DNA of 59,633 nucleotides, counting the filler, from Catajapyx aquilonaris (taxonomy: Eukaryota), in assembly GCA_000934665.2 (NCBI GenBank). It is 2 parts of 2 records of this genome, joined end to end, with 100 filler letters (N's around TTAATTAATTAA, not from the genome) between each part and the next. Parts side by side here need not be neighbours in the genome. Positions count along the whole stretch, not along the records: positions 1 to 29,760 come from JYFJ02004743.1; 1 more part is not named here. One strand, written 5' to 3'. The notes beneath the pieces are model-generated. The model saw only the letters and a program-made list of their open reading frames with translations, searched no databases and had not been told where the DNA came from. The translations under genes and the position numbers were made by a program. Position 1 is the first letter of the stretch; each line of letters begins with the position of its first letter. This document shows, in pieces, positions 9,748 to 27,916 of this stretch.

Positions 9748-10455
9748 CCGCTACTACAACTATAGAGGCAGGTGAAGTCATTCACACCTTACATCATTAT
9801 CAATAATCGCATAATGATCAAGTGAATCCCTGGCTGCTATAGTTATGGTGATGATTACCTGTATTTCTGTATGCAAATTTGCCGGCTGTCTGATCCTGTA
9901 AGGATCAACCTTTTTTGGCGGTTGGACCAGGTTGGACCCTTTGTTTACCATTGAAAGTGGTGTGCACTTTGAGCGAAAGATGGAGCCATGTTTGTTTGTA
10001 GTACTCAGTGTGTCGGTAGGTGGCTGGAGTGGCAGGGCTATCACAAGTTAATTGCAAAATTATGCAATTCATTTTAAAAGTAATAATTCGTGTCCAAATT
10101 ATCTGGCAAAAGAAAATTGTGTCGAAATAATACTTCGAGTTTCTACACTGCCAATAATAATTGTTTGCAGCCAAATACATCTCTATACGTATAAACGCGT
10201 GAAAGTTTGTCCATTTTTTGTTCGGGCTACCTAACCCACTTTTACATCTCTGAGAGTACTGAAACTTGGCAATGTCTTATGGCGCCATTGATACCGGAAA
10301 AGGTCAGAAAACTGCTCTTTTCTGAGTTTCAATACCGTACCAAAAATGTATTTTATTTTTTAAAACAAAAATGAAGTTTGGTGTAAATTGACGTGTTTAT
10401 TGCAAGATACAAGGTTACAAGATACACGCTGCATGTATACCGCGGTATTGACGAT

Positions 10456-11475
10456 TTAATTTCCGCATAAGAAGTCTCTGATGTGAGTGTTGACCTCTTC
10501 TGGGTGGTCGTGGTGCACCCAGTGGGACCCAGCTTGGATCATTCTTAGGCGACAATCTTGCACGTGTTCTGCCGAAATGTCGGGTCCCGCCGAGCACATG
10601 TACGGATCCTTCATTCCCCATATGATCAAGGTTTGCACCTTGACCTGGAGGTCATCCGTCTTGAACAAGATATCGAAGAAATTCGCACTGTAGTAGCTCA
10701 TAGGGCCGGTGAATGAATCTGGACAATATCAACATATGTGTTTAATGCACATAGCAATGATGCGACAGTGTCCTTATTACCTGGATGACAGTACGTGTAC
10801 TGGTATGCCTGGATGTCCTTTGTGCTTATTCGACTCCGACCAGATGGTGTTAACCAGAAGAATGAGTGGAACAACACGTCAACTACACTCCACATCAGAA
10901 GCTCCGGAAGGTACGGGATTTGGAAGAAGATGATGTACCAGGACATGATGGTCTGCTTCACATTCTGTGTCACGATCTTGACTAAGGCTGACGGATGGAA
11001 GCTGTTGAGTACGATCAGCTTCTGGACCATCTCCGGATGTCTAATGGCCATGAACCAGGCCAGGACTCCTCCCCAGTCGTGGCCAACCAGGATGCATTGT
11101 TGCCTGCCTGCAACAATGCGGGTCAACTCTAGAGAGACGAGTCATACTTGACGACACTCACCCAAATGGTGCAGAAGACGTCGGATGTCGTCCAGAAGGA
11201 CGTCCACCTTGTAGTTCTCGGTGCCAGATGGCTTGTCCGAGTCCCCATACCCTCTGAGGTCAACTGCCACCACCCTGACAATGCAACCGGTGTGTGAAGC
11301 ATTAAAACACTAGTAATGAGAGTCATACTTACCCATTACTTACCAGTACCTGTCGCTGAGGTCACGAAGCTGGTTTCTCCAAGAGTACCAAAAGTCTGGA
11401 AATCCATGGAGAAGCAGCAGCAAAGGCCTCTCTTTGTCTCCTTTTTCAACGTAATGCAGCTTCACATTCTGTATA

Positions 11476-11549
<74 letters not shown>

Positions 11550-11786
11550 TACAACCCTGACCTTGAGTTTAGCATAAGAGTGTTTTCCCCAGTCAGCATT
11601 TTGGAGTGTCTCAGGTGGCTTCTTCCATGTCTTGAGGGTGATTCCGATATACCTTCCGAACAACCATCTGAAGGTGACCCAGGTCACAGCTAAAGGCGTC
11701 AGGCACAGACTCCCTGCGACTGTCAGGGCGGTCAGGACACAGCATACCACAAAGAATGGCACGAGAGTCAAGTCAATTATAGTCAT
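10456..11786 (-). CDS. EPHX4: Epoxide hydrolase 4-like paralogue A (exons 11786-11562, 11468-11344, 11274-11162, 11107-10781, 10718-10456)
   Basis: N-terminal hydrophobic anchor, HGFP, DLRGYG, GHDWGG nucleophile, SWY, SYY, WGMKD, SHWVHHD. Confidence 0.9.
11475..11548. repeat. (TAG)n/(CTA)n microsatellite, about 24 units, in intron 1 of paralogue A
   Basis: Read directly from the sequence. Confidence 0.98.
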
Positions 11787-12061
11787 GTTGGAACTGATGA
11801 GCACGATGCCAGACTCTTATCACATTGATAATGACTGCCTGTTGCACAATAGTCAATTGGTAGTTGTTGGAGTGTTTCTTGAACTGCGAAAAATCTTGTT
11901 TCTATTTGCGCTGTGTTGAGGTCATTTAAATAATAAAAAAATCGTCTGTAGTGTTAATTTTATCAAACTTTATTTCACGCGGTACAAACAGATGGGAATG
12001 ATAAGAGGTATTGTTAGGTAGATATAAATTGCGAATTTCACGAAAAAGTGTGTGTGTGAAG

Positions 12062-13328
12062 CTACTCTCGATCTATGAATTCGCAGATGAACTTGTTGAC
12101 CTCCTGTGCATGGTCCTGTTGTACCCAATGGGAGGCGCCTTCGATCGGACGGAGAGAGCACTCCTGGACGTAATCTCTGGACACGGTGGCCAGCTCTGGT
12201 GACAGGTACCTGTCCTTCATTCCCCAGATGATCAGGGTGCGCGTCTTGACCTGAGGGTCACGTAAGGGCGAGGTCAGCCCAGCAGCACGGTAGTAGTTGA
12301 CTGGACCAGTGAACGCGCCTATGAAAAAAGAAGACAATGCAACCTTTGGACCTGCAGATAATGCACGATAAAGTGACCTTCGCCGTACCTGGGTGTGAAA
12401 ATGTGTACTGGAAGGCTTCGATGTCCTTCTGACCGATTAGGTTACGACCTTCTTTTGTGACCCAGAAGGCCTTCTGGAACATCTTGTCCAAGTTGGCCCA
12501 CATGTACAGCTCGGGAACGTACGGTATTTGGAAGAAGGTCATGTACCAGGACATCAGTACCTGAGTGATACTGCGACCTTTGACCTTCGCGAAGGCCGCC
12601 GGATGAGGACAGTTCATTATGATCAGCTTTTCGACAAGTTCAGGGTATTTGATTGCAGTGAACCAGGCCACTGCACCGCCCCAATCGTGACCACCCAGGA
12701 TGCATTGTTGCTTCCCTGCAATTATGATTTTATTAGCGATACTTATACGGCGGTACTGTACCGGTGGACGTACCTAAGTGTTGCACAAACTGTCTGACAT
12801 CATCAGCCAGGATGTCCCTTTTGTAGTTGGCCACACCCGACGGCTTATCGGAGTTGCCGTACCCACGAAGGTCAACAGCCACAACCCTACAAATTACGCA
12901 ATTGCAATCTCGAATTGCATTGTTGCAACCTGCGCACTTACCAGTACGTGTCGCTAAGATCCTGCAGCTGGTACCTCCAAGAGTACCAGAACTCCGGGAA
13001 GCCATGAAGCAACAGCAGAAGAGGCCTGTTCCGGTTGCCCTTTTCCACGTAATGCAGCTTCACGTCCTGCAGAATAAAAAAGGTCATTAGCTGGCCCAGG
13101 AGTGACCTCGAGTCCACTGACCTTGAGCTTGGCATACGAGTGCTGACCCCAGTTGGGGCTGTCCAGTGTCTCAGGCGATTTGGTCCATGTCTTGACCGGA
13201 AACCCAAAGTATCCTCCGAAGAACCTCCTGAAGACCACCCATGCCACAAGCCACGGGGTCACACACAGGGTCACTCCATAGATCAGCACAACCAAGACAC
13301 GACGCTCAAGGAACGTCGCTAGTCCCAT
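12062..13328 (-). CDS. EPHX4: Epoxide hydrolase 4-like paralogue B (exons 13328-13122, 13066-12942, 12886-12774, 12715-12389, 12318-12062)
   Basis: HGFPEFW, DLRGYG, GHDWGG, NYYRA, WGMKD, SHWVQQD; canonical splice sites. Confidence 0.9.
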
Positions 13329-13527
13329 GATGTCCAGTTAGATGTGAAGGCCAGACTGATTCGACTGAGCTTTTTTTATCGTCTCTGCATGTGCACTTGG
13401 TGACTCACGTGGGTACAAAGGTAACGGAACAGGAGGTACGGCTGGTCTTATCTGAATCATTTTACTGCCAAGGAGTTGGTGTACACGGGCGTTTTATTGT
13501 ACCGTACTATACATTAATATCTGTACA

Positions 13528-14784
13528 TCATGAGGCGAAGTCTGTTATGTACTTGTTGACCTCTTGTGGATGGTCCTGATGTACCCAGTGGGATGCTGTG
13601 TGGATATGTCGAAGGTGGCAGTCTTGGACGTACTTTGCGGATGCGTAGGCCAGTGGCGTAGAAAGAAACATGTCCTTCCCTCCCCATAAAATCAAGGTCG
13701 GTACCTTGACCTGGGAGTCCTCGATCATAAAGGAGTCGGGCCTATTCGCACGGTAGTAGTTGCTCGGTCCAGTAAACGCATCTGGGGTGATAATACAGAG
13801 ACAGTAAAAATGCGTAATGCAATAGCAGGTGCATACCTGGATGACAGTACGTGTACTGGTATGCCTGGATGTCCTTTGTGCTTATTCGACTCCGACCAGA
13901 TGGTGTGAACCAGAAGAATGAGTGGAACAATACGTCAACTACACTCCACATCAGAAGCTCCGGAAGGTACGGGATTTGGAAGAAGATGATGTACCAGGAC
14001 ATGATGGTCTGCTTCACATTCCGCGTCACCATCTTGACAAAGGCTGACGGATGAGGGCCGTTCAGTACGATCAGCTTCTGGACCATCTCCGGATGTCTTA
14101 TGGCCATGAACCAGGCCAGGACTCCTCCCCAGTCGTGGCCAGCCAGGATGCATTGTTGCCTGCCTGCAACAATGCGGGTCAACTTGGAGGACAGGTCACT
14201 CTTAACGACATTTACCCAAATGGTGCAGAAGACGTCGGATGTCGTCCAGAAGGATGTCCAGCTTGTAGTTCTCGGTGCCAGATGGCTTGTCCGAGTCCCC
14301 ATACCCTCTGAGGTCAACAGCCACCACCCTGACAATGCAACCGGTGTGTGAAGCATTGAAACGGGAGCAATGAGAGTCATACTTACCAGTACTTGTCGCT
14401 GAGGTCACGAAGCTGGTTTCTCCAAGAGTACCAAAAGTCTGGAAATCCATGGAGAAGCAGCAGCAAAGGCCTCTCTTTGTCCCCATTTTCCACGTAATGC
14501 AGCTTCACATCCTGCATATCACCAACATTATTATCATAATTATTAGTGTACAGTACAACACTGACCTTGAGTATGGCGTACGAGTGTATTCCCCAGTCCT
14601 CATTTCGAAGTGTCTCCGGAGGTTTCCACCATGTCTTGAGAGGGACGCCACAGTGCTTTCCGAAAAGTCTTCTGAAGATGACCCAGGTCACAGCTAAAGG
14701 GGTCAGGCACAGGGTCACTCCAAAGGTTAGGACGACCAGGACACAAATAGCAAAAAACGATGCCACTCCAATTCTCTCCATCAT
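13528..14784 (-). CDS. EPHX4: Epoxide hydrolase 4-like paralogue C (exons 14784-14566, 14511-14387, 14328-14216, 14163-13837, 13781-13528)
   Basis: HGFPDFW, GHDWGG, NYYRA, WGGKD, SHWVHQD; canonical splice sites. Confidence 0.9.
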
Positions 14785-17262
14785 TGTACACTCACTCTGG
14801 TACGTTCATTTGCTTACACGCAAATATTTGTACTGCAGCTTCAACAATTTGGGATCGGTGTTCTTGGAAGGGAAAAACTTTTGTTTTTTAATGCGTAAAA
14901 GCATTTCGCACGATTCAAAAACACGGGTCAAGCCCGTGCATCATTTAAGGATGGGACGCATGCGAACTATTGTGTGGGCGCTTTCACACATAGTGTTTCC
15001 TTGACATCACTGCACTGTTTGCATGCTGAATTTTTGCATCATGTGAATCCCCAGATTTGACTGATAGCCAGTGCACGTTCTGGCCCATTTACGCAATAGT
15101 GTCACATATAATTTGCATGAAATTTCGCGTTGTCCGTTTAGTGGGTCAGAACATGTAAAACCTCGGTATTAATTTTACTGATTACCTAATTGTATGACCT
15201 TGGTGTAGCCTACATCTCAGAAGATACGATGCATCATCTGTCACGGTCGAATGCAGCATGGAACTGGTTGTCTTATCAGAAAAATATACCGGCCGGTATA
15301 ACAGGTCATTAATCTATTCATAATCTTGTGAATGTGAGAAACAATGGGCAAATTACACGGTATTAATTGCGCTAATGTTCCACACCTCCAGGTGACCAAG
15401 ACCAGTGGCGTCGCTATAGGTGACACCATGTCCAAATCTCCAAAAAGAAGGGCATAGATGCTCTGTTTAGGCTGTGTACAATACACACTATATTATACTA
15501 ATAAATGCGCCTTTTTTACTTCAGCATAACCGAATCTACGATTTCAAACGTCCTATTTAATGTCTCTGTCTCTATAAAGTGAGTGATGACCAATAGTTTC
15601 ACAACTATCTGTTCTATCTCTTCCTCAGATGCAGGACAGAGCTCCTGTTCACATAAACCCCCTGGAGGAGGAGGAGCAAGAAATGCAGAGAGGAACGCAG
15701 CTGGAAGGAATATTGAAGCACCGTCATCACCGTCATACCTAGCAGAATCTACATCTATACGTATGTGCGATTAAACAGACTAACTTTTTTTCATATAATG
15801 CGTGTTGTGCCCATCGGAAAAAAAAACAAAAACAAGATTGCTAATAAAGAACCTTAATTATCCCTCAATAAATTCTTCCTCGTTGAGATTCCAGGTCAAT
15901 TACAAGTAATTTCGGTGTGCCAGGTCTTCAGGGAGGAAAGTACAGTATATTATTAAGGAAATTTAGAATCAAAAAGGCTTCAATTTTATAACATGTCATT
16001 GCATCTAAACATTAAAATCCGTTACTCAATTATTCGTTCGAGTTAAACATTGGCCTGTATTACAGTACTAGCTAATTACCCACATATGCAGTAGATATTT
16101 GTCATGTGTTGCATTGGTCTAGTGGCTAATATGGAGCTAATAATGGCAAAAAAAAAATTGAATCTAGATAATGTGCGTCATACCTGATTTTCAGACAACC
16201 CAGTTCACAACTGCATCAGTATCGTTGAACCATTCGCAATGCTTAATTGTAACCAGGAACCTCCCATCAAATGTGCATAATAAATGTTCCGAGCAGTCGG
16301 CATTATTAAGTTATTATATTTTCTTTTAACTGATGCACGTTCATATTTTTAGTTAATTTTTTTTGGCAATTTTTAATTCTTCATTTTGTACTCGTCAACA
16401 CTACAGGATTGTAGGTGAGCGCTTCCTGCACATATACTCGAGCAGAGTTAGTTATCTTTTCTTCATATTAATTTTTTCAATAGAGCAGGATTTTATCTAT
16501 GACAAGTTTTAAGCGCTCTAAAAACAATGTGTATGCATGGTATACACAGCAAATTGTGTACTGCATTGTACTAACTAATGTACATAATGCTGTACACAAT
16601 GTGCAGTTTTTTTAAAAAATCGCAACGCTGTGTACCATGGATACACGTTGCTTTTGAGAGAGTACCCCTTGAAGTATATCAGTTCGAGAGTAACATCCTG
16701 TGATGATGGGGGTGGCGTACTGCAGACAGAATAATTTGGGAACATACGCAGTTTCTTATCATTTTTTGTTTGTTTTTGACGAGTGTGAGAGTCGATGCTC
16801 TTCATGTGTGGGAATGTATTATTTTCTTTTAGTGGACATGTCCCTTTTTAGGCCTTCTGTAGCAGGTATAGGGTGGCCATTTCCAAATCTTCAGAAAGAA
16901 GGACACAGCTGGTAGGTATATCGTGTATAGGCTTTATACAGTACAATACATTGTGTGACCCATGACCTCGGGTCACACCCTGACTAGCTCAATATATCAC
17001 ACGAAAAGAAATCATACCAAGGTTATTTTTTTGTTTTTAGCACACGAATATTTTTAAAGAATATACTGAAACACAAATTATCACATTCTTTTACTTATTA
17101 GCACACTAATAAGGCTAAAAAATGTAACCTAAATCAAATATTTTATGGTGATTGTTGAATTTTGTGGCGCCATTTCTTTATACAATAAGTACATGCTGGA
17201 GAGAGTGTCAGTATCGAAGTAGCGCAGTGGTCTAGTGGTTAAGAGAGGGGAGGGGAGAAAAT

Positions 17263-17806
17263 TTTTTTGGAAATTTTTAAGACACCTGCTTAATGGGAGG
17301 GGGCGGTCACTTTTTTCGAAGAAAAAAGTCTTAAATTTAATCATTCAAAAATTGAAGAATTCCGGTTTGTGTGGGCCATCCCCAGCCCCCACCCTACCAC
17401 TGCCCAAGTGTACTGTGCTCTGTACAGTCTCATTACGAAAGACCCGACAGATGGAGACCGAGGTAGGGCCCGGCCCGAGACCAAAAACCTAATATTAGGG
17501 CCTTTCAGGTCAAAGGTCAGGCTGCAACAAACCATTGAAAATGACCTAAAAATTGTGCCGAATCATTTGCATGTGTTGGTGATTTTATTGGACCTATAGT
17601 TAAATTTCTGGGAGCTAATTTTTTGGGGGGTGATAGGTTTGAGAATGGATCTCCCAGGTATAAGGTAAATGCACCCACTTGGGCAGGGGCAGGCCCACAC
17701 AAACCGGAATTCTTCAATTTTTGAATGATTAAATTTAAGACTTTTTTTCTTCGAAAAAAGTGACCGCCCCCTCCCAGTAAGCAGGTGTCTTTAAAATTTC
17801 CAAAAA
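17263..17806. mobile_element. Inverted-repeat (foldback/MITE-like) element
   Basis: Near-perfect inverted arms of about 115-130 bp, at about 17263-17390 and 17680-17806. Confidence 0.7.
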
Positions 17807-17935
17807 TATCGGGATCATCCTGCGTGTCAGGCGACCCACAACCATGGGTTGCCTTGACAAGTAGGATGATGATCCCTAATGAAAACTACAAATTGCAACG
17901 AAACAACTTTTATTCTTATTGGCACGTGCGGACAT

Positions 17936-19138
17936 TCATTGTCGATCTATGAATTCGCTTATTAATTTGTTGACCTCCTGTGCATGGTCCTGTTGTACCC
18001 AATGGGAGGCACCTTCGATCGGACAAAGAGAACACTCCTGGACGTAATCTCTGGACGCAGTGGCCAGCTCTGGTGACAGGTACCTGTCCTTCATTCCCCA
18101 GATGATCAGGGTGCGCATCTTGACCTGAGGGTCACGTAAGGGCGAGGTCAGCCCCATAGCACGGTAGTAGTTGATCGGACCAGTGAATGCACCTATAAAA
18201 GTGACGATTAATCGAATATAAAGTGTGTCTCATATATCAATTGACCTTTTACCTGGATGCGAAAATGTGTATTGGAAGGCTTCGATGTCCTTCAAACTGA
18301 TTAGATTCCGTCCAGGTCCAGTGACCCAGAAGGCCTTCTGGAACATCTTGTCCAGATTGGACCACAGGTACAGCTCAGGGACGTACGGTATTTGGAAGAA
18401 GGTCATGTACCAGGACTTGAGTACCTGGCCGATGCTACGACCTTTGACCTTCCCAAAAGCTTCCGGATGAGGCGAATTCAGTATGACCAACTTCTCCACA
18501 ACTTCTGGGAACTTGATGGCCACATTCCAGGCCACAATTCCGCCCCAGTCATGACCACCCAATACGCATTGTTGCTTCCCCAAATGGTGCACCAGTTGAC
18601 GTACATCCTCTGCCAGTACACCCGTCTTGTAGTTATCCACACCCGATGGCTTATCAGAGTCGCCGTAACCGCGAAGGTCAACAGCCACAACCCTATACAA
18701 ATTACGCAATTGCAATCTCGAATTGCATTGTTGCAACCATGCACTTACCAGTACTTGTGGCTTAGATCCTGCAGCTGGTACCTCCAAGAGTACCAGAACT
18801 CCGGAAAGCCATGAAGCAACAGCAGAAGAGGCCTGTTCCGGTTGCCCTTTTCCACGTAATGCAGCTTCACGTCCTGCAGAATTAAAAAAAAGGTCATTAG
18901 CTGGCCCAGGAGTGACCTCGAGTCCACTGACCTTGAGCTTGGCATACGAGTGCTGACCCCAGTTGGGGCTGTCCAGTGTCTCAGGCGATTTGGTCCATGT
19001 CTTGACCGGAAACCCAAAGTATCCTCCGAAGAACCTCCTGAAGACCACCCATGCCACAAGCCACGGGGTCACACACAGGGTCACTCCATAGATCAGCACA
19101 ACCAAGACACGACGCTCAAGGAACGTCGCCAGTCCCAT
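17936..19138 (-). CDS. EPHX4: Epoxide hydrolase 4-like paralogue D (exons 19138-18932, 18873-18749, 18692-18253, 18192-17936)
   Basis: HGFPEFW, GHDWGG, NYYRA, WGMKD, SHWVQQD. Only three introns. Confidence 0.9.
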
Positions 19139-19291
19139 GATGTTCAACAGACTGAAGTTCAAAGTAACGGAACTTATCAGTGTGTACTGTACACGTATTT
19201 CTCAGGCTGACTCGGCACAAAAAAAAAATAAGTGAAAACATATCCTCGCTTCTCCGGCTGGGCTGCTGCACTTGATAGTCCACCAGCAGCA

Positions 19292-21695
19292 ATGGCGGAA
19301 GGGTCATCACCATCTTCTTGTCGGAATGTGTGTGCCCAGATAGCCACATACGTGTTGACACTTGTGCTGGCTCCATGGGTGCTCTTGTACGTGATGCTGC
19401 GGAGGTGGTCCAGAGGCGGAGATGGACCTTGCCTCCAGTTTGGAGCTCTTGACACCAATCCTCCGAAGATCCTTCTGGACCCAAAATGGGGGAAACACAG
19501 CTACATACAACTCAAGGTATGTCAAGTTAGTGGAAAAAAATAATTCACAAAATGTATAGCAAAAATCTGCAAAAAAAGTCATGTAATGAAAAGTACAGTA
19601 CATTGTTCCGGTTTGAAAAAAAAAAAATGGGGTCAAATGCGGCCAGGGACGTTGAACCCACCGTTAGTGGCCTCGAACTTGAGAATTTTCACTTTCTAGT
19701 TTGTCTCTCGTGATGCGGAAAACTCTGATTTGCAACTTTTTTTTTTTGGCGAATGAGCTATACTGTGGGCTGATTTTTGCAGGATTCATGCAAGGCTTGA
19801 GTTTGTTGGATCATGGAGCTTTCTATAATGTGTGTGGGACTGAAGGGTCGCTGAACTATAAGCAGTTCAGACCGGATTTATATCTGGTTTTAATTATATG
19901 AGCCAGATTTGGCAAGGGGTTTTAAGTAATTTAAAAAAAATATTTGTGGCTGGACTGTATACGACGTTTGTTTGTTCATGAAATAAATCAACAGACCACA
20001 AAAATAAATATTGCACCATTTAAAATCTCAAATATTATTTTATAAAATAAATTTCATTTAAAAGTGTGTGTGTGTGTATGCTGTGAATCCAACCATTAAT
20101 AATTTTATCCCAATTTTGCAATTTAGAAAATGTTGTAGGGTGAAAACATTTTTGCTAATTAATAGTACGGAAACTGCATGTAGGCCACTACTTCATATCC
20201 TGTTGATGAAATGCACATGATGCATGCATTTTAAAAAAAACAGAAAGTACAAAAAAATAATGCTCCGTTATAAAGTTCTCTTCACATTAAGTAATTACCG
20301 TACTACACCTTTAAAAGTGCAACAGACCAAAACGGATTGCCTGGAGTCATACACAATTGAATAAAAAAAAAAGGTGCTGATATAATGACGCTGTACATTC
20401 CACGCAGTGCATCTTGCACGGAAAGGTGGTAGTCCTTGAGACATAAGCAAGGCCTTTTTTTTTTGCCAATTATATACTTTTTGCGTCGTATAAACCTAGA
20501 AATGCATCCTATAATGCCAGAGTAGTAATAACATTATTTTTTGTACTTTATATTGCATATTGCGCTAAAGCACTATTACCGTAATAAGCGAACTGGCCTT
20601 GTATTATTCAAGTGCGACAGTGTTGAACAATTAGCTATAAACCATAGCAAATTTACAGGGTAGTCGTACCGTATCCAATATGTAATGTAATATAATTATC
20701 CAATTATTCAATGTACAGAACATACGTATGCACTACGTAGAAAATGGCGACAGCAACAAGCCTCTGATGTTATTCCTTCATGGATTCCCCGAGTTCTGGT
20801 TCTCCTGGCGTCATCAACTGGTTGAATTTGCTCGTGATCACTGGTGAGATTAATTCCAGTTGTGTCGTTGAATGGTTAATTGATCTTTTGTTAATTTTAG
20901 GGTGGTTGCTGTTGATTTGAGAGGGTATGGCGAGACGGAGAAGCCCGATGCCAGCCAGTACAAGATGACCATGATTGTCGAGGACATCCGAGAGCTGGTG
21001 GAGAAGCTGGGTAAGAAGAAGTGCATCCTGGTGTCCCACGACTACGGCGGAGTAGCAGCTTGGATAACGGCGATCAAGCATCCGTCCATTGTCGACAAGA
21101 TGATCGTAATGAACTGTCCGCATCCATCAGCATTCTTCAAGGTCTTCAAAAGCAACCCCAGGCAGTGGATAATGTCACTGTAAGTGTAAGCACCTGCCGA
21201 CATATATTTCTCCGGTGTACTAAACACCTTCATTGCAGGTACATGTTCTTTGCCCGTCTCCCGTGGCTGCCTGAATACTTCTTGTCGGCCAACAATCTGG
21301 AGATATTCGAGAAGATCTTCTGGGTCACTCCCCACACCCGGCAATCTATTTCCAAGCAGGAGTTGGATGCTTTCAAGTTCGCCTTCTCAACTCCAGGCGC
21401 ATTCACAGGTCCACTGAACTACTATCGTGCCATAAACTGGCTAGGCGGCCTCCAACGTGGAGACAAACCCAAAGACGGTGATGATTCAAGGAGACGCGAG
21501 AAGTTGCGTGTTCCGACCCTGATTCTCTGGGGGAAGCTGGACTCCTTCCTTTCCTTGCCTATGGCCGAGTCCTCGCAAAAGTACGTTGAGGACATTACGC
21601 TCGTCACAATCGATGAAGCGTCGCACTGGGTCCAGCAGGACTTCCCTGAAAAGGTCAACAAGTACATGCGGGACTACCTGGCTAGTCGCAACTGA
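19292..21695 (+). CDS. EPHX4: Epoxide hydrolase 4-like paralogue E (exons 19292-19516, 20719-20843, 20901-21179, 21239-21695)
   Basis: Hydrophobic N-terminus, WGKHSYIQLK, HGFPEFW, DLRGYG, SHDYGG, NYYRA, WGKLD, SHWVQQD. Confidence 0.9.
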
Positions 21696-22769
21696 AAAGG
21701 CGGCGAAGTGGTGGAGGTTTGAGAATTACACATTTTGTGACCGCTTACAGTGTAACAATCCGTTAAGTAAAACGCCATGAACAGTGCCTTCAACAAGTAA
21801 TTATGAAAAGAAAAAAAAAGCACAAACGTGTAATTCTCAACTAACGGGGATTAAGAGAGAAAAAAAAACCTGGTGTTTTCTTATCGATATAAGTTATTCC
21901 ATTGACTTACATTGTACCAGCTCAAATGCTGCAAAATAAACACATTACTGTGCACAAATATACACGCTTGCAAAATATCACATCCAGAACCTCCAGTAAA
22001 GTTGATGAAAACAAGTTTCGAATATCGTATTGCTAGGTAAAATATTATGCCTGAGACGAGTGGGATTTGAGTCGCGCGTTAACAAGCAAGGAATAATAAA
22101 AAGGGGCTGGTCACAATTATTCCTTGGAAAAAAAAAGGCCTGCGGAAACTGGTTACAACATAAAGGGGCATATTGCTCATGGTGCGCAAGAATGTGTTGG
22201 ATACATTAATAATTACGCAGTGCACTTACAGCGCGATGTAGTAGCTAAGTTTGACTATTCCCTCTTTGAACTTGGTTTCAGCTTCTATCAATCAGCTATA
22301 AAAATAGTCGTTGATGTTAAAAATATCGGCTGACAAATAATTATTATTGTGAAATAACTGCTTGCACAGCCACAACATCGCCTGTATTTGGCCCTTCTAT
22401 TTCCGAACCCGAACTTCACAAAAAGGCCTGTTAATTGCTCTCTTTACAATGATATTTGCGATGGCCTGAAATCACATTACTAGAAACTGTGCTACATACT
22501 CGTAAAGTGGAATGTACGACCTCCATTTCCTAACTGATCAGCCTCACGTTGTACTGAGATTTCACCAGATATACAAGCTACTTTGAACAACCAGCAATGT
22601 GACTCGCCCTCAGTGGTCTTTGGTCTGCTAATAAATTAAATGCCAGCATCGCTAGCCTTAATAATAATATTATGACATCTGAATGAGTGGGGGGTGAGAT
22701 TAGTTAATTAAATTATTATTTTTTTGTTGTCGTCATCATCGTCGTATGAAAGTTTGATTAGAGGTTGGG

Positions 22770-25700
22770 TCAATCCTGCGGATCGTTGACCAGGAAGTGA
22801 TAGACGAATGTGGCCTTCTTCCTGTCCAACACCTGCTGACTGGATTTGGTTTTGGCTCCCGGGTCCATCCTCCCTCGAGGCGGATCCCTCAAAAATATGC
22901 TTCCAAACAGGGTCGCCAGTGTCTTAGCGTCAAGTCCATTCTGGTTGGAATGGGTCAGCACTTCGCGAAGGAAGGCGCACAGGTAGAGAAACACATTGCG
23001 GTTGTACTCGGACAACTGGCTTATTATCTGCAAGAGAAAAACAGAAGAAGTTTGTAGAACTTACAACATTTTGGCTCGTCAAGCTACAAAACTTCAGTCG
23101 AAACCGCATCTTGACGTACCTGCCTGCACTGCATGTAATTGCTGGCCACGTCAAGGCAGCGGATGTGCAAATGGTAGGGTATGACAGGCTCCCAAGACGA
23201 CTCCAAGAGCAGCAGAAGGGCTTCGGCTACAGAGTGGACTCCACCAGCTTAATCAAATTAAGGCACACGCTCACAACATTGCCAACAATCGTTTCATGCA
23301 AAAGAATAAGAGCTAAGCATTGCAGATTTGCTAAAAAGGATACGCATCGGATCTAACGACCCCGAGTCGAGCCAGTCCCTAATCTGCACTATCTCGTAGT
23401 GGAGTCCAGGCTGCTCGAAGAGATGATTCTGCGTCATTCCAGATTCATACATGCGGTCAACCAGCAGGAGGATCTCCTTTGGGATCGGGTATGGCTCCAG
23501 TGCCAGTGCAGACTCCTTCGGCGGCTTGCTCTCCTGGACGGATTCCAATGTTAAAAAGTGGACAAACGACTCATGTAGTAAGTACGTACCAGCTCAACTA
23601 TTCTTCCGACTTGAATTTCCTCGATGGGCTGGGGAATGTTGACTAGTGACTGAATGGAGCATCCGAAGCAGCTGCGCTTGTAAGTTCCAGTGACGGTAAT
23701 GAACAGGTCCTTCCCACCCTCCAGGTGCAGAACCAGTATGTCATACAGCTTGTCCTGACCCGAGTTGAACTTCCAAGCTGTCTTCTTATCCACGTACACC
23801 TCCAGGGTCACATCACATTTCTCACCTTTTCAATGAGACAAAAGGGTTGCAATTCAAGTCCTACAACAAATTTTTCGCAACAAAGTACCTGGCATAATGA
23901 ATCCAAGGTAAGGCTCAATGCTGAGCCATTCTTTGCAGTAAGTGGTCTCGTTGAGCTTCTTGATGAATTCGAACCTGACTGGAACCTGGCCTGTGTTGGC
24001 AATGGTCAGCGACCTGGTCTGGGGCTCGATGAACTTCAGAGTGCCGAAGATGATCTCCGTGTTGTCGACCATCACCTGCGGCAGGAACTCATTCTCCAGT
24101 TTGTCCAACTTCTTCATCACTTCCTCGTATATCTTGCGGTAACGGACAGTATCTATCACTTTCACCTGCGGATCAAGAGTAGCAACTTTGGAACTTGCTG
24201 AACCAGGGATGAATCATAGGAATGACTAAGGGAGCGTGCCGTATGACTAACAGAATAATGAGCAGAAGCCATTCATGCATGACAGCAGAGATTGTATGGA
24301 AATCATTGTCGATCAATCAATTTCAGACGTGATCATTAATGGCTTCTACTCGGAAATGTTTCCATAAACTGACCCCGGATTGAAAGAGGGCGCTGACAGG
24401 CTTGTGGTCACTCAGTTTGAATACCGGATGACTCCTGTACGCGATCTGTTTGATGTGCTCCCCTCGCCACATGACACGGTCGCACCAAGCAGGAGCACGG
24501 TTCTTCTCACTTGAATCCCAGTCATCTGTCCCCGGGTCGTACTTGTAAGTAGGTGAGAAAGTTATAGGCCCTTCCTGGTACCCCAAAAATACCCTGCGGC
24601 CATCCCTCTGCTGCTTGAGCTGATCCGCGGTCAGCAAAGGAGCAAGATTCTCCGCTTGAACCATACGTTTTGCAGCCTCTGCCTCAACGTCAGTTATGCG
24701 GTAGTTCAAGTCACCCAGCCAATACACCTGGTCGTGATCTTTAATGCCTGAAAAATAAACAGAAAGGGGTAATTACTCTGCAATTAAACAATGCGTGCAC
24801 CAAAGCTGGACTACCCCCGACACATCCGCATTTCACATTTGAACGGCATGCAAAAAAGGCATACTTGCTCTATATTTCATGCATATTTTGCGAGGAAAGA
24901 GACCTTTAGGCGGAATGAAATTTGAGAAGCTGAGCCTCGAGCAGATGTCATGGTAGTCCTGGTTTCTCCTTTCGAACTCCTCCACATGAGCGGCCAGATG
25001 GGAGTTGACGAAACAGATGGAGGTGGTGTGCAGCTCCAGTCGCACGGCCACACCTCCCTTGTTCCCCATCTTCCCCATGATTCCCGTCCCCACAGTCTCC
25101 ATTGCAACTCCATGCACATAGGCCGCATGCTGCTCCTGCACGAACACCAGCAGCATCATGCCCACCAGTCGAACCAGCTTCACCTTTCGGTACTTAGCCT
25201 TCGTATGAAGCCCATTCAAAACCGCATTTCTAAATCAGGACGAAACATGATGTACCGGTTGTTGAAGTAATTCCGCAATATCCGCAACTTACAACCACTC
25301 CTCTTCTCTGGGTGTGTCGTTGAACAGGAAGGCCTCCTTGCTCAGATCCAACTCCTGGAAGCCTATGGCGTATATGTCAGGCGGCTCCGGATCAGCAGCC
25401 AGCCACGGTTGGAGGGATAGTCCTCCAGGAGCCTGGCCGTTGACGTTCCAGGTGCCCACAAACACCTTGAACGGATGCGAGTCTGTGTACGCATCCTCCT
25501 TCATGGCCATCTGATAGCGAACAACACTCTCTCTCGCTGCAATCGGTGTAACTCCAAGGGCAATATTCTGACGGGACACTGCGATATCTGGGCTGTCCAG
25601 CTCTCCGGCCTGTATCGGCGACATAAAATACATTTGTAACAATATTTATCATTTTCACATTCTGAAACATACAGGGACGACACCTCTATTGTAGAAAAAC

Positions 25701-27916
25701 CCTGCTAAAAACATGTCATGGCCGGCAACCTTTCACGCATATTCAGAACTATTTGAGTGTAAAATAGTGTACGCTAACAAACTCATGTTTCCTAGGATAT
25801 CCTATCGGTACGCATCAATCTGTATTATTATCCGTTGCGTACCTTTCTTCCTGACTCGGATCCAGTGCTGAACCCAACGCTGTCTGCGGACAAGCTGCCC
25901 TTCTCCGCCTCCAAGCTGTCCCCGCAGCTGTTGTTCTCGCTGGAGTCTGTCGACGCCATTGTGGCAGTGCTGTTTGAGAGGTACTTGTGCACCCAGGCAA
26001 ATTCAGGCGGTGGTCCACGGCTTTTGGTCAGAACTGTGCAATGAAAAAACAAAACATCAAATTGTAGTTCAGAAGCGTAAGGCTTTCAATACTCACTCTC
26101 AACTGCTCGGAAAATATCTCCGACAAAATTGCTGGTGGCAAATCCGGGCGAGAGCTCAAACAGAAGCTTCAGCTTATGCGACGTAATCTTTACGTACACG
26201 TCGACTCCATCCGAGTCCGCACTGCCTGTGTCTGAAACCAGGATTGCACACAAGGTGTAATTAACGCCTTAATTAGACCGCAACTTTAATAAAGAAAATT
26301 AGTAATCCCATAACCAGAAAAAAAAAGCCATAACCAATATAATCATAACAATTACGGAAAATCCCAGAAAAAAACACAAGCAAAACTACCTTCCACCCAT
26401 TCGCAATATTCTAAAAATAAAAGTACGCAAGCTGTTCTAGTTCTGACTTTGATGACTGCCAATAAGGAAATGGCCCTTTCCCTCATTATTTTAGACGAGC
26501 TCTTCAGTAAAGCTTCGTCACCTTTTGCAACCGCAATAAATGTCACCATTAATTAATTCCCGCATTATTCCCAAAACATACATGCTACGACAACAATGAA
26601 GGCCACGTATTTAGTTGTAACAAAAAATCTGACTGTAACGCAAATGTCCGTGGCTTGCGTTTCGGCCCACAAATTATTATTTTTTGCTTCTTTACGGACC
26701 TCACGAAAAATTCAAACGCACAGCCACTTTCATGCAATAATATAGACATGAAAATAAAATGAAGGACAACTTGGGCTGGGTTAATACTTTTTTGTGGGGG
26801 AGGGAGGATCACAGTGAATCCAATTTGCCTTACCTATCTCGCACTTGAAATCGGCATCGATTGGCATGATGCGTTCCAGGGAGAGGTCAGAGAGGGAAGT
26901 GACGGGCACGGGGGAGATAATGAACACAAAGAGGGCGTACTCGTTCTGCTGCTGGACCAGGGTCAGCAGGCGGTACGTCCGCACCCAGTCCTGCACCAGG
27001 ATTGCCCTCAGCATTTACACTCACCATTAAGGAAATCTTCCATCACACACTCTCTCTCTAACATAAACACAATCCAAGGGGGTCGGCTAATGGGTCGGAC
27101 TCATTCATAACCAATGGGACAACTTATACGATACTGAGGCGGGCATTACAATGATCACTTGACGTCTCACGTAAAAACGTAACGAAATGTGAAATGAAAA
27201 TTGCCAGTCACAAAATTTTGGGACGTTACAAAATACTGTGGGGTCAAATGGGGATATTTCACATGCCTTTTGATCTTTACAAGATTTACGCTACACATGC
27301 ACACTGTTTCTCATATTTACTTGCAACACTGGCTGCATGCAATCAGTGTGGGGGAGAAAAGTGTTTTCCAGCTTAATCCAAAGCCGTTTTTTAAAGGACA
27401 GTCCTGTCGTTAATATTTTCATTACCATACGATGCGAAAAGTCACGTATACATTATGCGCAATCCTGTCGTAATTATTTTCATTACTAATACGACGTGAA
27501 AAGTATAATTTACTACCAATTGCACAGCAATAAGGAAAATAAAAAGTTTGTACTGTACCACGTCTGGCGTAACTTATTCAATATTCGTTCATAAATATCG
27601 GCTACAGTAAAAAACCTTGCTCATAATAATGTCAGCTCATCATCATGTGAAATGAATTTCCCCCCCACACTGTTTGCAATTGCGGTAACTATCTACAATG
27701 ACACAACGGAAGCGCAACAATAGCATGCGCAAACTAATACATGAAGCCGTTTAAGCATGAAAGAAAGAAAAAACTAGGGAGGGTGATAAAATAGGGGGAA
27801 AAAAAAAGGTTTGACGACAACAAACAACAACTACAAGTGCAGAAAAAGGATATTGAAACAAGGTGCTCTCCCGATGCCAACTTGCTCTGCACAATTGCCT
27901 GCTGTTCAGAAGCCAT
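22770..27916 (-). CDS. OCRL: OCRL/INPP5B type II inositol polyphosphate 5-phosphatase (exons 27916-27854, 27014-26834, 26231-26097, 26033-25843, 25609-25293, 25229-24904, 24747-24374, 24165-23889, 23825-23590, 23533-23344, 23247-23120, 23027-22770)
   Basis: PH-like N-terminus, [43 protein letters not shown] domain and RhoGAP-like C-terminus. Confidence 0.95.
23248..23343 (-). other. U12-type GT-AG intron in OCRL
   Basis: Donor GTATCCTTTTT; branch-like TGCCTTAAT about 10 nt before AAG; no polypyrimidine tract. Confidence 0.85.
27015..27853 (-). other. U12-type intron with AT-AA termini (OCRL intron 1)
   Basis: Donor ATATCCTTTTT; branch TTCCTTAAT about 13 nt from the end; the in-frame acceptor is ...GTGTAA|ATG. 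Confidence 0.75.

What the first reader, a model, noticed from the sequence alone, without database searches (positions are those of the whole stretch)
27010..27860. OCRL intron 1 appears to be a U12 minor-spliceosome intron with rare AT-AA termini
Seen: exon 1 ([21 protein letters not shown]) is followed in phase 0 by a perfect U12 donor, ATATCCTTTTT. Near the far end of this 839-nt intron is a U12 branch consensus, TTCCTTAAT, about 13 nt before ...GTGTAA|ATGCTGAGG. There is no AC nearby. The nearby AG and AT options shift the frame, and the upstream in-frame codon is TAA, so AA is the only plausible frame-preserving acceptor at branch-point distance. The join gives [19 protein letters not shown]. 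Established: U12 introns choose the 3' site largely by distance from the branch point, and AT-AA is a rare documented variant. Inference: this may be an AT-AC intron that drifted at its last base and that gene predictors would miss.
Basis: partly seen in the sequence, partly recalled or inferred. Interest (0 to 1): 0.78.

Follow-up and report, generated by a model that had tools for sequence, protein, structure and literature searches.

The report
Conserved U12 intron, AT-AA ends, OCRL
The first intron of this arthropod's OCRL/INPP5B gene is almost certainly a minor-spliceosome (U12) intron ending in AA, but the same intron is already catalogued as U12-type in human and mouse, so it is an ordinary new example of a known thing.

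Summary
On the minus strand a 21-codon exon 1 (27916-27854) is followed by ATATCCTTT. TTCCTTAAT lies 12-13 nt before an intron end reading AA, and exon 2 starts at 27014.

Only this join gives the conserved N-terminus:
- 49 of 77 orthologues align without any gap across the junction.
- A family profile scores the join 101.9 bits, against 76.1 for exon 2 alone, 90.0 for the best GT-AG and 80.9 for the best AT-AC.

The intron sits where mouse INPP5B has Ile19|Ala20. Published tables list INPP5B with the donor ATC|ATATCCTTC and AT-AG ends, and OCRL as a minor-intron gene. Two other arthropod lineages in metagenome contigs have a U12 branch site before the same exon, with AG or AT ends.

An independent run reproduces the AA end, so it is not an assembly error. 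That run shows exon 2 only unspliced, so the splice itself was not seen.

A second U12-type intron (intron 10) is spliced in that run. AT-AA is the commonest non-canonical minor subtype.

Verdict: real, a new member of a known kind, low interest.

The parts
22770..27916 (-). Coding span of the OCRL/INPP5B-type inositol 5-phosphatase gene: 12 exons, 11 introns, 891 aa in my model
   Evidence: The model was assembled. Eight of the 11 introns are joined in contigs of run X5. Pfam finds INPP5B_PH, Exo_endo_phos2, OCRL-like_ASH and RhoGAP on the exon translations. The best relatives are arthropod OCRL proteins.
27854..27916 (-). Exon 1 coding part: ATG plus 20 codons, ending in phase 0
   Evidence: Read. 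Of its 21 residues, 4-13 (median 8) are identical to 77 orthologue N-termini. It adds about 26 bits to the family-profile score.
27845..27853 (-). U12-type 5' splice site ATATCCTTT, intron positions +1 to +9
   Evidence: It is the only copy of this motif in the window.
27015..27853 (-). Intron 1, 839 nt, U12-type with AT-AA ends
   Evidence: Orthologous U12 introns.
27026..27034 (-). U12 branch-site motif TTCCTTAAT, with candidate branch adenosines at 27028 and 27027
   Evidence: It lies 12-13 nt before the last intron base. The review passage gives an optimum of 11-13 nt.
27015..27016 (-). 3' terminal dinucleotide AA of intron 1
   Evidence: Read. A contig of the independent run X5 covers 26774-27153 with 0 differences.
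26834..27014 (-). Exon 2, 181 nt, ending in phase 1 before GTAAGG
   Evidence: Read. Pfam INPP5B_PH positions 21-78 of 145, E 4.8e-17. tblastn matches in 9 metagenome loci start and stop at the same exon limits.
23248..23343 (-). Intron 10, 96 nt. A second U12-type intron: GTATCCTTTT ... GCCTTAAT, then 10 nt, ending in AG
   Evidence: Read. It is spliced out in an X5 contig of depth 21.7 (joint 23247/23344).

Best explanation
Intron 1 (27853-27015, minus strand) of this arthropod's single OCRL/INPP5B-type gene is a minor-spliceosome (U12-dependent) intron.

Proposed mechanism:
- The donor ATATCCTTT is read by U11 and later by U6atac.
- TTCCTTAAT pairs with U12 snRNA and bulges a branch adenosine.
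- The 3' cut is placed by distance, 12-13 nt further on, where the sequence happens to read AA.

The splice joins a 21-codon exon 1 in phase 0 to exon 2 and so builds the start of the INPP5B-type PH domain.

The intron is old. It sits at the same place as the 5' minor intron of mammalian INPP5B (AT-AG) and most likely of OCRL (GT-AG). It is also U12-type in at least two other arthropod lineages.

Shown here: the motifs, their spacing, the fit of the join to the protein family, the orthology of the position, and that the AA end is real DNA sequence. Inferred: that the junction is actually made, and that the minor spliceosome makes it.
For: Sequence and motifs
- The sequence and motifs are as described.
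- The last 12 intron bases, TGGTGAGTGTAA, are purine-rich with no pyrimidine tract.
- The branch-to-end distance of 12-13 nt sits at the published optimum of 11-13 nt. The same review passage says non-canonical ends are spliced by the minor spliceosome.

Fit of the join to the protein family
- I scored all 2885 distinct stop-free in-frame joins made from any pair of cut points. The AT-AA product scores 101.9 bits against a profile of 77 orthologues. That is second by 0.2 bits to a join needing TC-TG or CC-GC ends.
- Exon 2 alone scores 76.1, the best GT-AG 90.0, the best GC-AG 87.1, the best AT-AC 80.9, and the best AT-AG 94.4 with a shifted donor.
- 49 of 77 orthologues have no indel across model residues 8-36.
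- The Pfam INPP5B_PH model starts 20 positions before exon 2's first matched residue. That is the length exon 1 supplies.

Orthology
- A profile alignment to PDB chain 2kig (INPP5B PH domain) is gapless across the junction. It puts the junction after the Ile of ...EYCVI.
- Olthof 2019's supplement gives INPP5B's minor 5' splice site as ATC|ATATCCTTC in both mouse and human. It lists two minor introns each for OCRL and INPP5B, one near each end of the gene.
- Sheth 2006 Table 3 lists INPP5B as a conserved AT-AG U12 intron.
- In 9 of 10 metagenome loci the match starts at the same exon 2 residue and is preceded by TTCCTTAAC, 10-11 nt from the exon.
- L009 has exon 1 followed by GTATCCTTTACG. L006 has exon 1 followed by GAATCCTTTT.

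Minor splicing in this organism
- Intron 10 of the same gene has U12-type signals and is spliced in run X5.

Not an assembly error
- An X5 contig from another sample and study covers 26774-27153 with no difference.
Against: - No RNA junction was seen. In X5, the only RNA-like run found, exon 2 appears only in a 380-nt contig that runs unspliced through both the intron 1 end and the intron 2 donor.
- The X5 contig carrying exons 3-4 has 39 foreign letters, not exon 2, in front of the exon 3 acceptor.
- No protein holding exon 2 of this organism exists in the large protein collection.
- Exon 1 alone is too short to hit Pfam.
- The presence of U11, U12, U4atac and U6atac could not be checked, because no genome is held.
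- Review text says non-canonical ends are often spliced less efficiently.
- The position of the mammalian AT-type intron as intron 1 is inferred. It rests on the ATC triplet, the coordinates in the supplement and the protein alignment, not on a gene map that I read.
Confidence: 0.85

Rival explanations
1. Exon 1 is not coding or not used. Translation starts at the ATG that opens exon 2 (27014), and the U12-like motifs are relics.
For: Exon 2 begins with ATG. The X5 contig covering exon 2 is unspliced on its upstream side. Several orthologue models also start inside exon 2.
Against: - The exon 1 peptide is conserved: 4-13 of 21 residues are identical in 77 orthologues. It adds about 26 bits to the family score.
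- L006 and L009 have the same short ATG exon, ending exactly at a U12-type donor.
- The Pfam PH model needs about 20 more N-terminal positions than exon 2 supplies.
- The orthologue models that start inside exon 2 look like prediction misses. P0044 is 92.6% identical to contigs that do have the branch site and, in L006, exon 1.
Confidence: 0.04
2. The donor is U12-type, but the main 3' cut is at another site. One option is the AG 20 nt from the branch A (exon start 27006), which shifts the frame and gives an unproductive mRNA. The other is the in-frame AG 36 nt away (exon start 26990).
For: Both AGs exist. A review passage says U12 3' site choice is error-prone and that non-canonical ends are less efficient. 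Mammalian INPP5B uses AT-AG.
Against: - With the donor in its consensus register, the AG at +20 breaks the frame.
- The AG at +36 deletes 8 conserved residues. No AT-AG join scores above 94.4 bits, against 101.9 for AT-AA.
- Distances of 20 and 36 nt lie outside the stated 11-13 nt optimum.
Confidence: 0.05
3. In the sampled tissue the main mRNA skips exons 1-2 and starts with another leader exon, lying outside the window, that is spliced to exon 3. Exons 1-2 with their AT-AA intron would then be poorly spliced or serve a minor isoform.
For: The X5 contig with exons 3-4 continues upstream into 39 letters that are absent from the window. Exon 2 is seen only unspliced, at a depth of 3.8.
Against: - It rests on one low-depth contig (depth 5), which may be chimeric.
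- Such an mRNA would lack the first half of the PH domain that orthologues conserve.
- The donor, the branch site and both reading frames are intact.
- Contigs cannot measure levels (tool text).
Confidence: 0.06

Closest known systems
Mammalian INPP5B 5' minor intron. It is listed as U12-type AT-AG, conserved between human and mouse, in Sheth et al. 2006 (PMC1557818, Table 3; passages and tables seen). Olthof et al. 2019 (PMC6717393) give its 5' splice site as ATC|ATATCCTTC (supplement rows seen).
   Same: - It is in the same gene family, with the same AT-type donor motif.
- It occupies the same place in the protein by profile alignment to chain 2kig: after the Ile of ...EYCVI, in phase 0.
- Its 3' end is also non-canonical.
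   Different: The last base is G in mammals and A here. That the AT-type intron is the 5' one of INPP5B's two minor introns is my inference from the ATC triplet and the coordinates. I did not read it from a gene map.
Mammalian OCRL minor introns. Olthof 2019 Table S1 has two rows each for human and mouse, with the 5' splice site given as GCC|GTATCCGCC. U12 intron retention in OCRL after DDX59 knockout is reported in PMC12095793 (passages seen).
   Same: OCRL is the paralogue of INPP5B and an orthologue of the window's gene. It has one minor intron near each end of the gene, as here (introns 1 and 10).
   Different: Those introns are GT-AG. I could not map their exact codon positions.
AT-AA subtype of U12-type introns. 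Sheth 2006 Table 2 counts 8 cases in four species and none in Drosophila, for example RASGRP4. Larue and Roy 2023 (PMC10639083) call it the commonest non-canonical minor end pair in animals and plants (passages seen).
   Same: An ATATCC donor, a consensus branch site and AA as the last two bases.
   Different: Nothing in kind. This is one more instance, in a gene and lineage where I found no record of it. I searched papers for OCRL or INPP5B together with minor-intron terms. Species-level databases were not available to me.
Orthologous introns in metagenome contigs L009/L010 and L001-L007.
   Same: The same exon 2 limits, with TTCCTTAAC 10-11 nt before the exon. Exon 1 ends at a U12-type donor in L009 and L006.
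   Different: L009 is GT-AG and 2129 nt long. L001-L007 end in AT. L006's donor reads GAATCCTTTT, with A at +2.

Membership tests
U12-type (minor spliceosome) intron | 5' splice site matching RTATCCTT from intron position +1 | tested here: met
   ATATCCTTT at 27853-27845, starting at the first base after exon 1.
U12-type (minor spliceosome) intron | Branch-site motif TCCTTRAY close to the 3' end, with an optimum distance of 11-13 nt | tested here: met
   TTCCTTAAT at 27034-27026, 12-13 nt before the last intron base. The distance rule comes from the review passage.
U12-type (minor spliceosome) intron | No distinct polypyrimidine tract before the 3' splice site | tested here: met
   The last 12 bases are TGGTGAGTGTAA. 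The feature is named.
U12-type (minor spliceosome) intron | The intron is actually removed at these borders in RNA | tested here: inconclusive
   The one RNA-like run shows 8 other introns of the gene spliced but no joint for intron 1. Exon 2 appears only in an unspliced low-depth contig.
U12-type (minor spliceosome) intron | Splicing depends on U11, U12, U4atac and U6atac | not testable with these tools
   This needs knock-down or in vitro splicing. No genome is held in which to look for the snRNAs, and there are none in the window.
U12-type (minor spliceosome) intron | Orthologous introns in other species are U12-type (positional conservation) | tested here: met
   Mammalian INPP5B and OCRL are catalogued as such. 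The position was matched through chain 2kig. L009 and L001-L007 carry U12 signals at the same exon border.
AT-AA subtype of U12 introns | First two bases AT and last two bases AA | tested here: met
   Read. An independent run reproduces the AA. Caveat: cuts shifted by -1, +1 or +2 nt give the same mRNA, so the assignment uses the donor motif's register.
OCRL/INPP5B type II inositol polyphosphate 5-phosphatase | Domain order: INPP5B-type PH, 5-phosphatase, ASH, RhoGAP-like | tested here: met
   Pfam PF16776, PF22669, PF21310 and PF00620 fall on successive exon translations. The closest solved chains to the orthologue profile are OCRL 4cmn and INPP5B 3mtc. The best database relatives are named OCRL or type II 5-phosphatase.

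The most novel reading that the evidence does not exclude
This one orthologous U12 intron may be a hot spot for changes of the terminal bases. Across the few lineages seen it reads AT-AA (this window), AT-AG (mammalian INPP5B), GT-AG (mammalian OCRL, L009) and G.-AT (L001-L007).

In L006 the donor is GAATCCTTTT, with A instead of T at +2. If that base is real, it is an end pair (GA-AT) that I did not see listed in the tables I read.

Such a natural series at one fixed site would allow a test of how freely the minor spliceosome tolerates first-base and last-base combinations, and of whether the AA end lowers splicing efficiency enough to regulate OCRL dosage.
Probability: 0.3. Interest if true: 0.45.

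Novelty: new member of a known kind. Interest (0 to 1): 0.25.

Why it matters
It matters mainly for annotation. Exon 1 and the first part of the PH domain of arthropod OCRL are easily lost by gene predictors that expect GT-AG. Four listed orthologue models start inside exon 2.

It also shows that both minor introns of the OCRL/INPP5B family predate the split of arthropods and vertebrates, and that the 5' one changes its end bases freely while keeping its donor and branch motifs.

OCRL is the Lowe syndrome and Dent-2 gene, and its dependence on minor splicing is already known in human cells. The arthropod case therefore adds evolutionary depth, not a new principle.

Tried and rejected
- RNA evidence. 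The look-up of sequencing runs listed no holder on record as RNA. Run X5 (kind '?', holding 0.47 of the words) proved RNA-like, but gave no joint, and hence no verdict, for introns 1 and 2.
- The 30-letter consensus of the 39-letter loose end at 26232 was searched in the window with up to 3 mismatches. It was also searched for shared 10- to 14-mers. Nothing was found.
- Protein searches with exon 2 alone found nothing: 'longer', 33 candidates with none at E <= 0.001; 'near', no candidate. No transcript-derived protein of this organism could therefore show the junction.
- Exon 1 alone against Pfam: no family, because 21 aa is too short.
- Own genome: not held. The records behind L005 and L006 are not held either, so exon 1 of L001-L005 and L007 could not be reached. 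Their held parts begin just downstream of it.
- Rfam and tRNA scans of the window: nothing.
- Paper searches. OCRL or INPP5B with 'minor intron', 'U12-type' or 'minor spliceosome' gave only the papers cited. A recalled OCRL intron 1 variant name was not found. The supplement of PMC7367187 held no row for either gene.
- The other three RTATCCTT sites in the window (33160 and 42364 on the minus strand, 51226 on the plus strand) show no convincing exon end or nearby branch motif. I take them as chance.
- Assembly error at the last intron base is rejected. The DNA runs X1-X3, which may be the assembly's own source, and the independent run X5 show no difference there.

Full report
**What is there**

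The finding lies on the minus strand.
- An ATG at 27916 opens a 21-codon reading frame that ends with TCA at 27854.
- The next bases are ATATCCTTTTTC.
- Further on, TTCCTTAAT occupies 27034-27026, followed by TGGTGAGTGTAA. ATGCTGAGG begins at 27014.
- The stretch between the two exons is 839 nt.

ATATCCTTT occurs once in the 59.6-kb window, with 0.67 expected. TTCCTTAAY occurs four times, with 1.63 expected. RTATCCTT occurs five times, with 3.96 expected. The motifs are therefore not enriched. What matters is where they lie.

**The gene**

Pfam places the following on successive exon translations:
- INPP5B_PH on exon 2 (E 4.8e-17, profile positions 21-78 of 145) and on exon 3;
- the 5-phosphatase fold;
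- the OCRL-like ASH domain;
- RhoGAP.

A search with the 149-aa catalytic exon returned 1957 proteins at E <= 1e-20. The best 120 are almost all arthropod proteins named OCRL or type II 5-phosphatase, at 54-69% identity. I built a 12-exon, 891-aa model.

**RNA and DNA runs**

Five runs hold the stretch. Four are DNA-like and come from one sample that may be the assembly's source. The fifth, X5, comes from another sample and study and holds 0.47 of the words. I laid X5 and three of the four DNA-like runs.
- When laid, X5 proved RNA-like. Its contigs skip 8 of the 11 introns (3, 4 and 6 to 11), all with GT..AG on the gene's strand.
- X5 shows no joint for intron 1 or intron 2.
- Exon 2 lies in one 380-nt contig of depth 3.8 that runs unspliced from 27153 to 26774. 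The contig is identical to the window.
- The AA end is therefore real sequence in an independent sample, but the splice itself is not shown.
- The X5 contig with exons 3-4 carries 39 letters upstream of the exon 3 acceptor. They are neither exon 2 nor anything else in the window. This remains unexplained.

**Does the proposed join make the right protein?**

*Orthologue alignment.* Of the 120 orthologues, 78 carry the conserved exon 1 motif near their start. I dropped P0080, a reverse-transcriptase fusion whose match was spurious.
- Of the remaining 77, 49 align to the AT-AA model with no indel between residues 8 and 36, a stretch that spans the junction at 21|22.
- A further 21 have a two-residue insertion, and 7 have other small indels.
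- Exon 1 shares 4-13 (median 8) of its 21 residues with them.

*Profile scoring.* I enumerated every pair of cut points in 27914-27781 and 27100-26901 that keeps the frame open, whatever the end bases. This gave 2885 distinct products, which I scored against a profile of the 77 orthologues.

| Join | Score (bits) |
|---|---|
| Top product (needs TC-TG or CC-GC ends) | 102.1 |
| AT-AA product | 101.9 |
| Best AT-AG (donor shifted by 2) | 94.4 |
| Best GT-AG | 90.0 |
| Best GC-AG | 87.1 |
| Best AT-AC | 80.9 |
| Exon 2 alone | 76.1 |

- An in-frame AG does exist (exon start 26990). It is 36 nt from the branch A and removes eight conserved residues.
- The AG 20 nt from the branch shifts the frame if the donor is cut in its consensus register.
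- Cuts moved by -1, +1 or +2 nt give the same mRNA. 'AT-AA' is therefore fixed by the donor motif, not by the junction.

**Is it a known intron?**

Yes, at the level of the gene family.
- Sheth et al. 2006 (PMC1557818; passages and Tables 2-3 seen) list INPP5B among non-canonical U12 introns, with AT-AG ends conserved between human and mouse. They count 8 AT-AA cases in their data.
- The supplement of Olthof et al. 2019 (PMC6717393; rows seen; the table is identified) gives INPP5B's minor 5' splice site as ATC|ATATCCTTC in both species. It gives OCRL's as GCC|GTATCCGCC in human.
- The same supplement lists two minor introns for each gene, one near each end.
- A profile of arthropod N-termini aligns without a gap to PDB chain 2kig, the INPP5B PH domain (E 6.7e-07). 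The arthropod junction falls after the Ile of ...EYCVI and before AVQG. An Ile codon ATC in front of ATATCC is what the supplement shows.
- That this is the 5' of the two INPP5B minor introns is my inference. I had no gene map.
- Human OCRL's U12 introns are retained when DDX59 is knocked out (PMC12095793, passages).

**Other arthropods**

One scan of metagenome contigs with the N-terminal alignment gave 10 loci. In 9 of them the match begins exactly at the residue that opens exon 2 and ends at the exon 2 donor.
- *L001-L007.* They are 90-95% alike. Their exon 2 is 92.6% identical to a termite protein model that itself starts inside exon 2. In all seven, TTCCTTAAC is followed by 9 bases ending in AT, then the exon.
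- *L006.* It also holds exon 1, which is followed by GAATCCTTTT.
- *L009 and L010.* TTCCTTAAC is followed by 10 bases ending in AG. In L009, exon 1 sits 2129 nt upstream and is followed by GTATCCTTTACG.
- *L008.* It resembles copepod proteins and has exons 1 and 2 fused in one 180-codon frame. This fits the reported loss of minor introns in copepods (Larue and Roy 2023, PMC10639083, passage).

The intron is thus U12-type across arthropods and mammals, with ends that differ: AA, AG, AT.

**Mechanism**

The review by Turunen et al. (PMC3584512, passages) states the following.
- U12 introns are defined by their 5' splice site and branch sequence.
- They lack a pyrimidine tract.
- Their optimum branch-to-3'-site distance is 11-13 nt.
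- They can be spliced with non-canonical ends, often less efficiently.
- Their 3' site choice is error-prone.

All the sequence features are met here.

A second intron of the same gene, intron 10 (23343-23248), reads GTATCCTTTT ... GCCTTAAT, then 10 nt ending in AG. It is spliced in X5 at depth 21.7. This mirrors the 3' minor intron of the mammalian genes and suggests the organism has working minor splicing. I did not check it.

**Verdict**

The missing piece is a junction read.
- The idea that the AA arose from AC has no support, because no homologous intron seen ends in AC.
- AT-AA is the commonest non-canonical minor subtype in animals and plants.
- The intron itself is catalogued in mammals.

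This is a new member of a known kind. It is useful for annotation and as a small evolutionary note, not a surprise.

Noticed in passing
window 23248-23343 (-): A second U12-type intron in the same gene, intron 10, 96 nt: GTATCCTTTT ... GCCTTAAT, then 10 nt ending in AG, with no pyrimidine tract. It is spliced out in run X5. It parallels the 3' minor intron listed for mammalian OCRL and INPP5B.
   Followed up: partly
L006 478-545 and 2440-2500; L001-L007 just upstream of the match: In a group of seven related insect-like metagenome contigs the orthologous intron ends in AT, after TTCCTTAAC plus 9 nt. In L006 it begins GAATCCTTTT, with A rather than T at +2. This is either an unusual G(A)-AT end pair or a base error in a single contig.
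   Followed up: partly
L008 124-666: A copepod-like contig has exons 1 and 2 fused in one 180-codon frame, so the U12 intron is absent there. This is in line with the published loss of minor introns in copepods.
   Followed up: partly
window 26232 (run X5 loose end): The RNA-like contig holding exons 3-4 continues upstream of the exon 3 acceptor into 39 letters that occur nowhere in the window. They could be an alternative leader exon from outside the window or a chimeric contig.
   Followed up: partly
window 28186 (run X5 loose end): An X5 contig matches up to 28186 and then runs on for 255 or more unlike letters. I see no splice signal at that point.
   Followed up: no
proteins P0002, P0012, P0021, P0044: Four public arthropod OCRL models begin at MQGWVR, six residues into exon 2. 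They lack exon 1, which looks like a prediction miss caused by the U12 intron.
   Followed up: partly
window about 10400-21700, both strands: Several tandem open frames carry an HGFP.FWYSWR motif and look like alpha/beta-hydrolase (epoxide-hydrolase-type) genes, with at least five copies. One region near 11450-11560 holds a long trinucleotide repeat. This was seen only in the ORF list.
   Followed up: no
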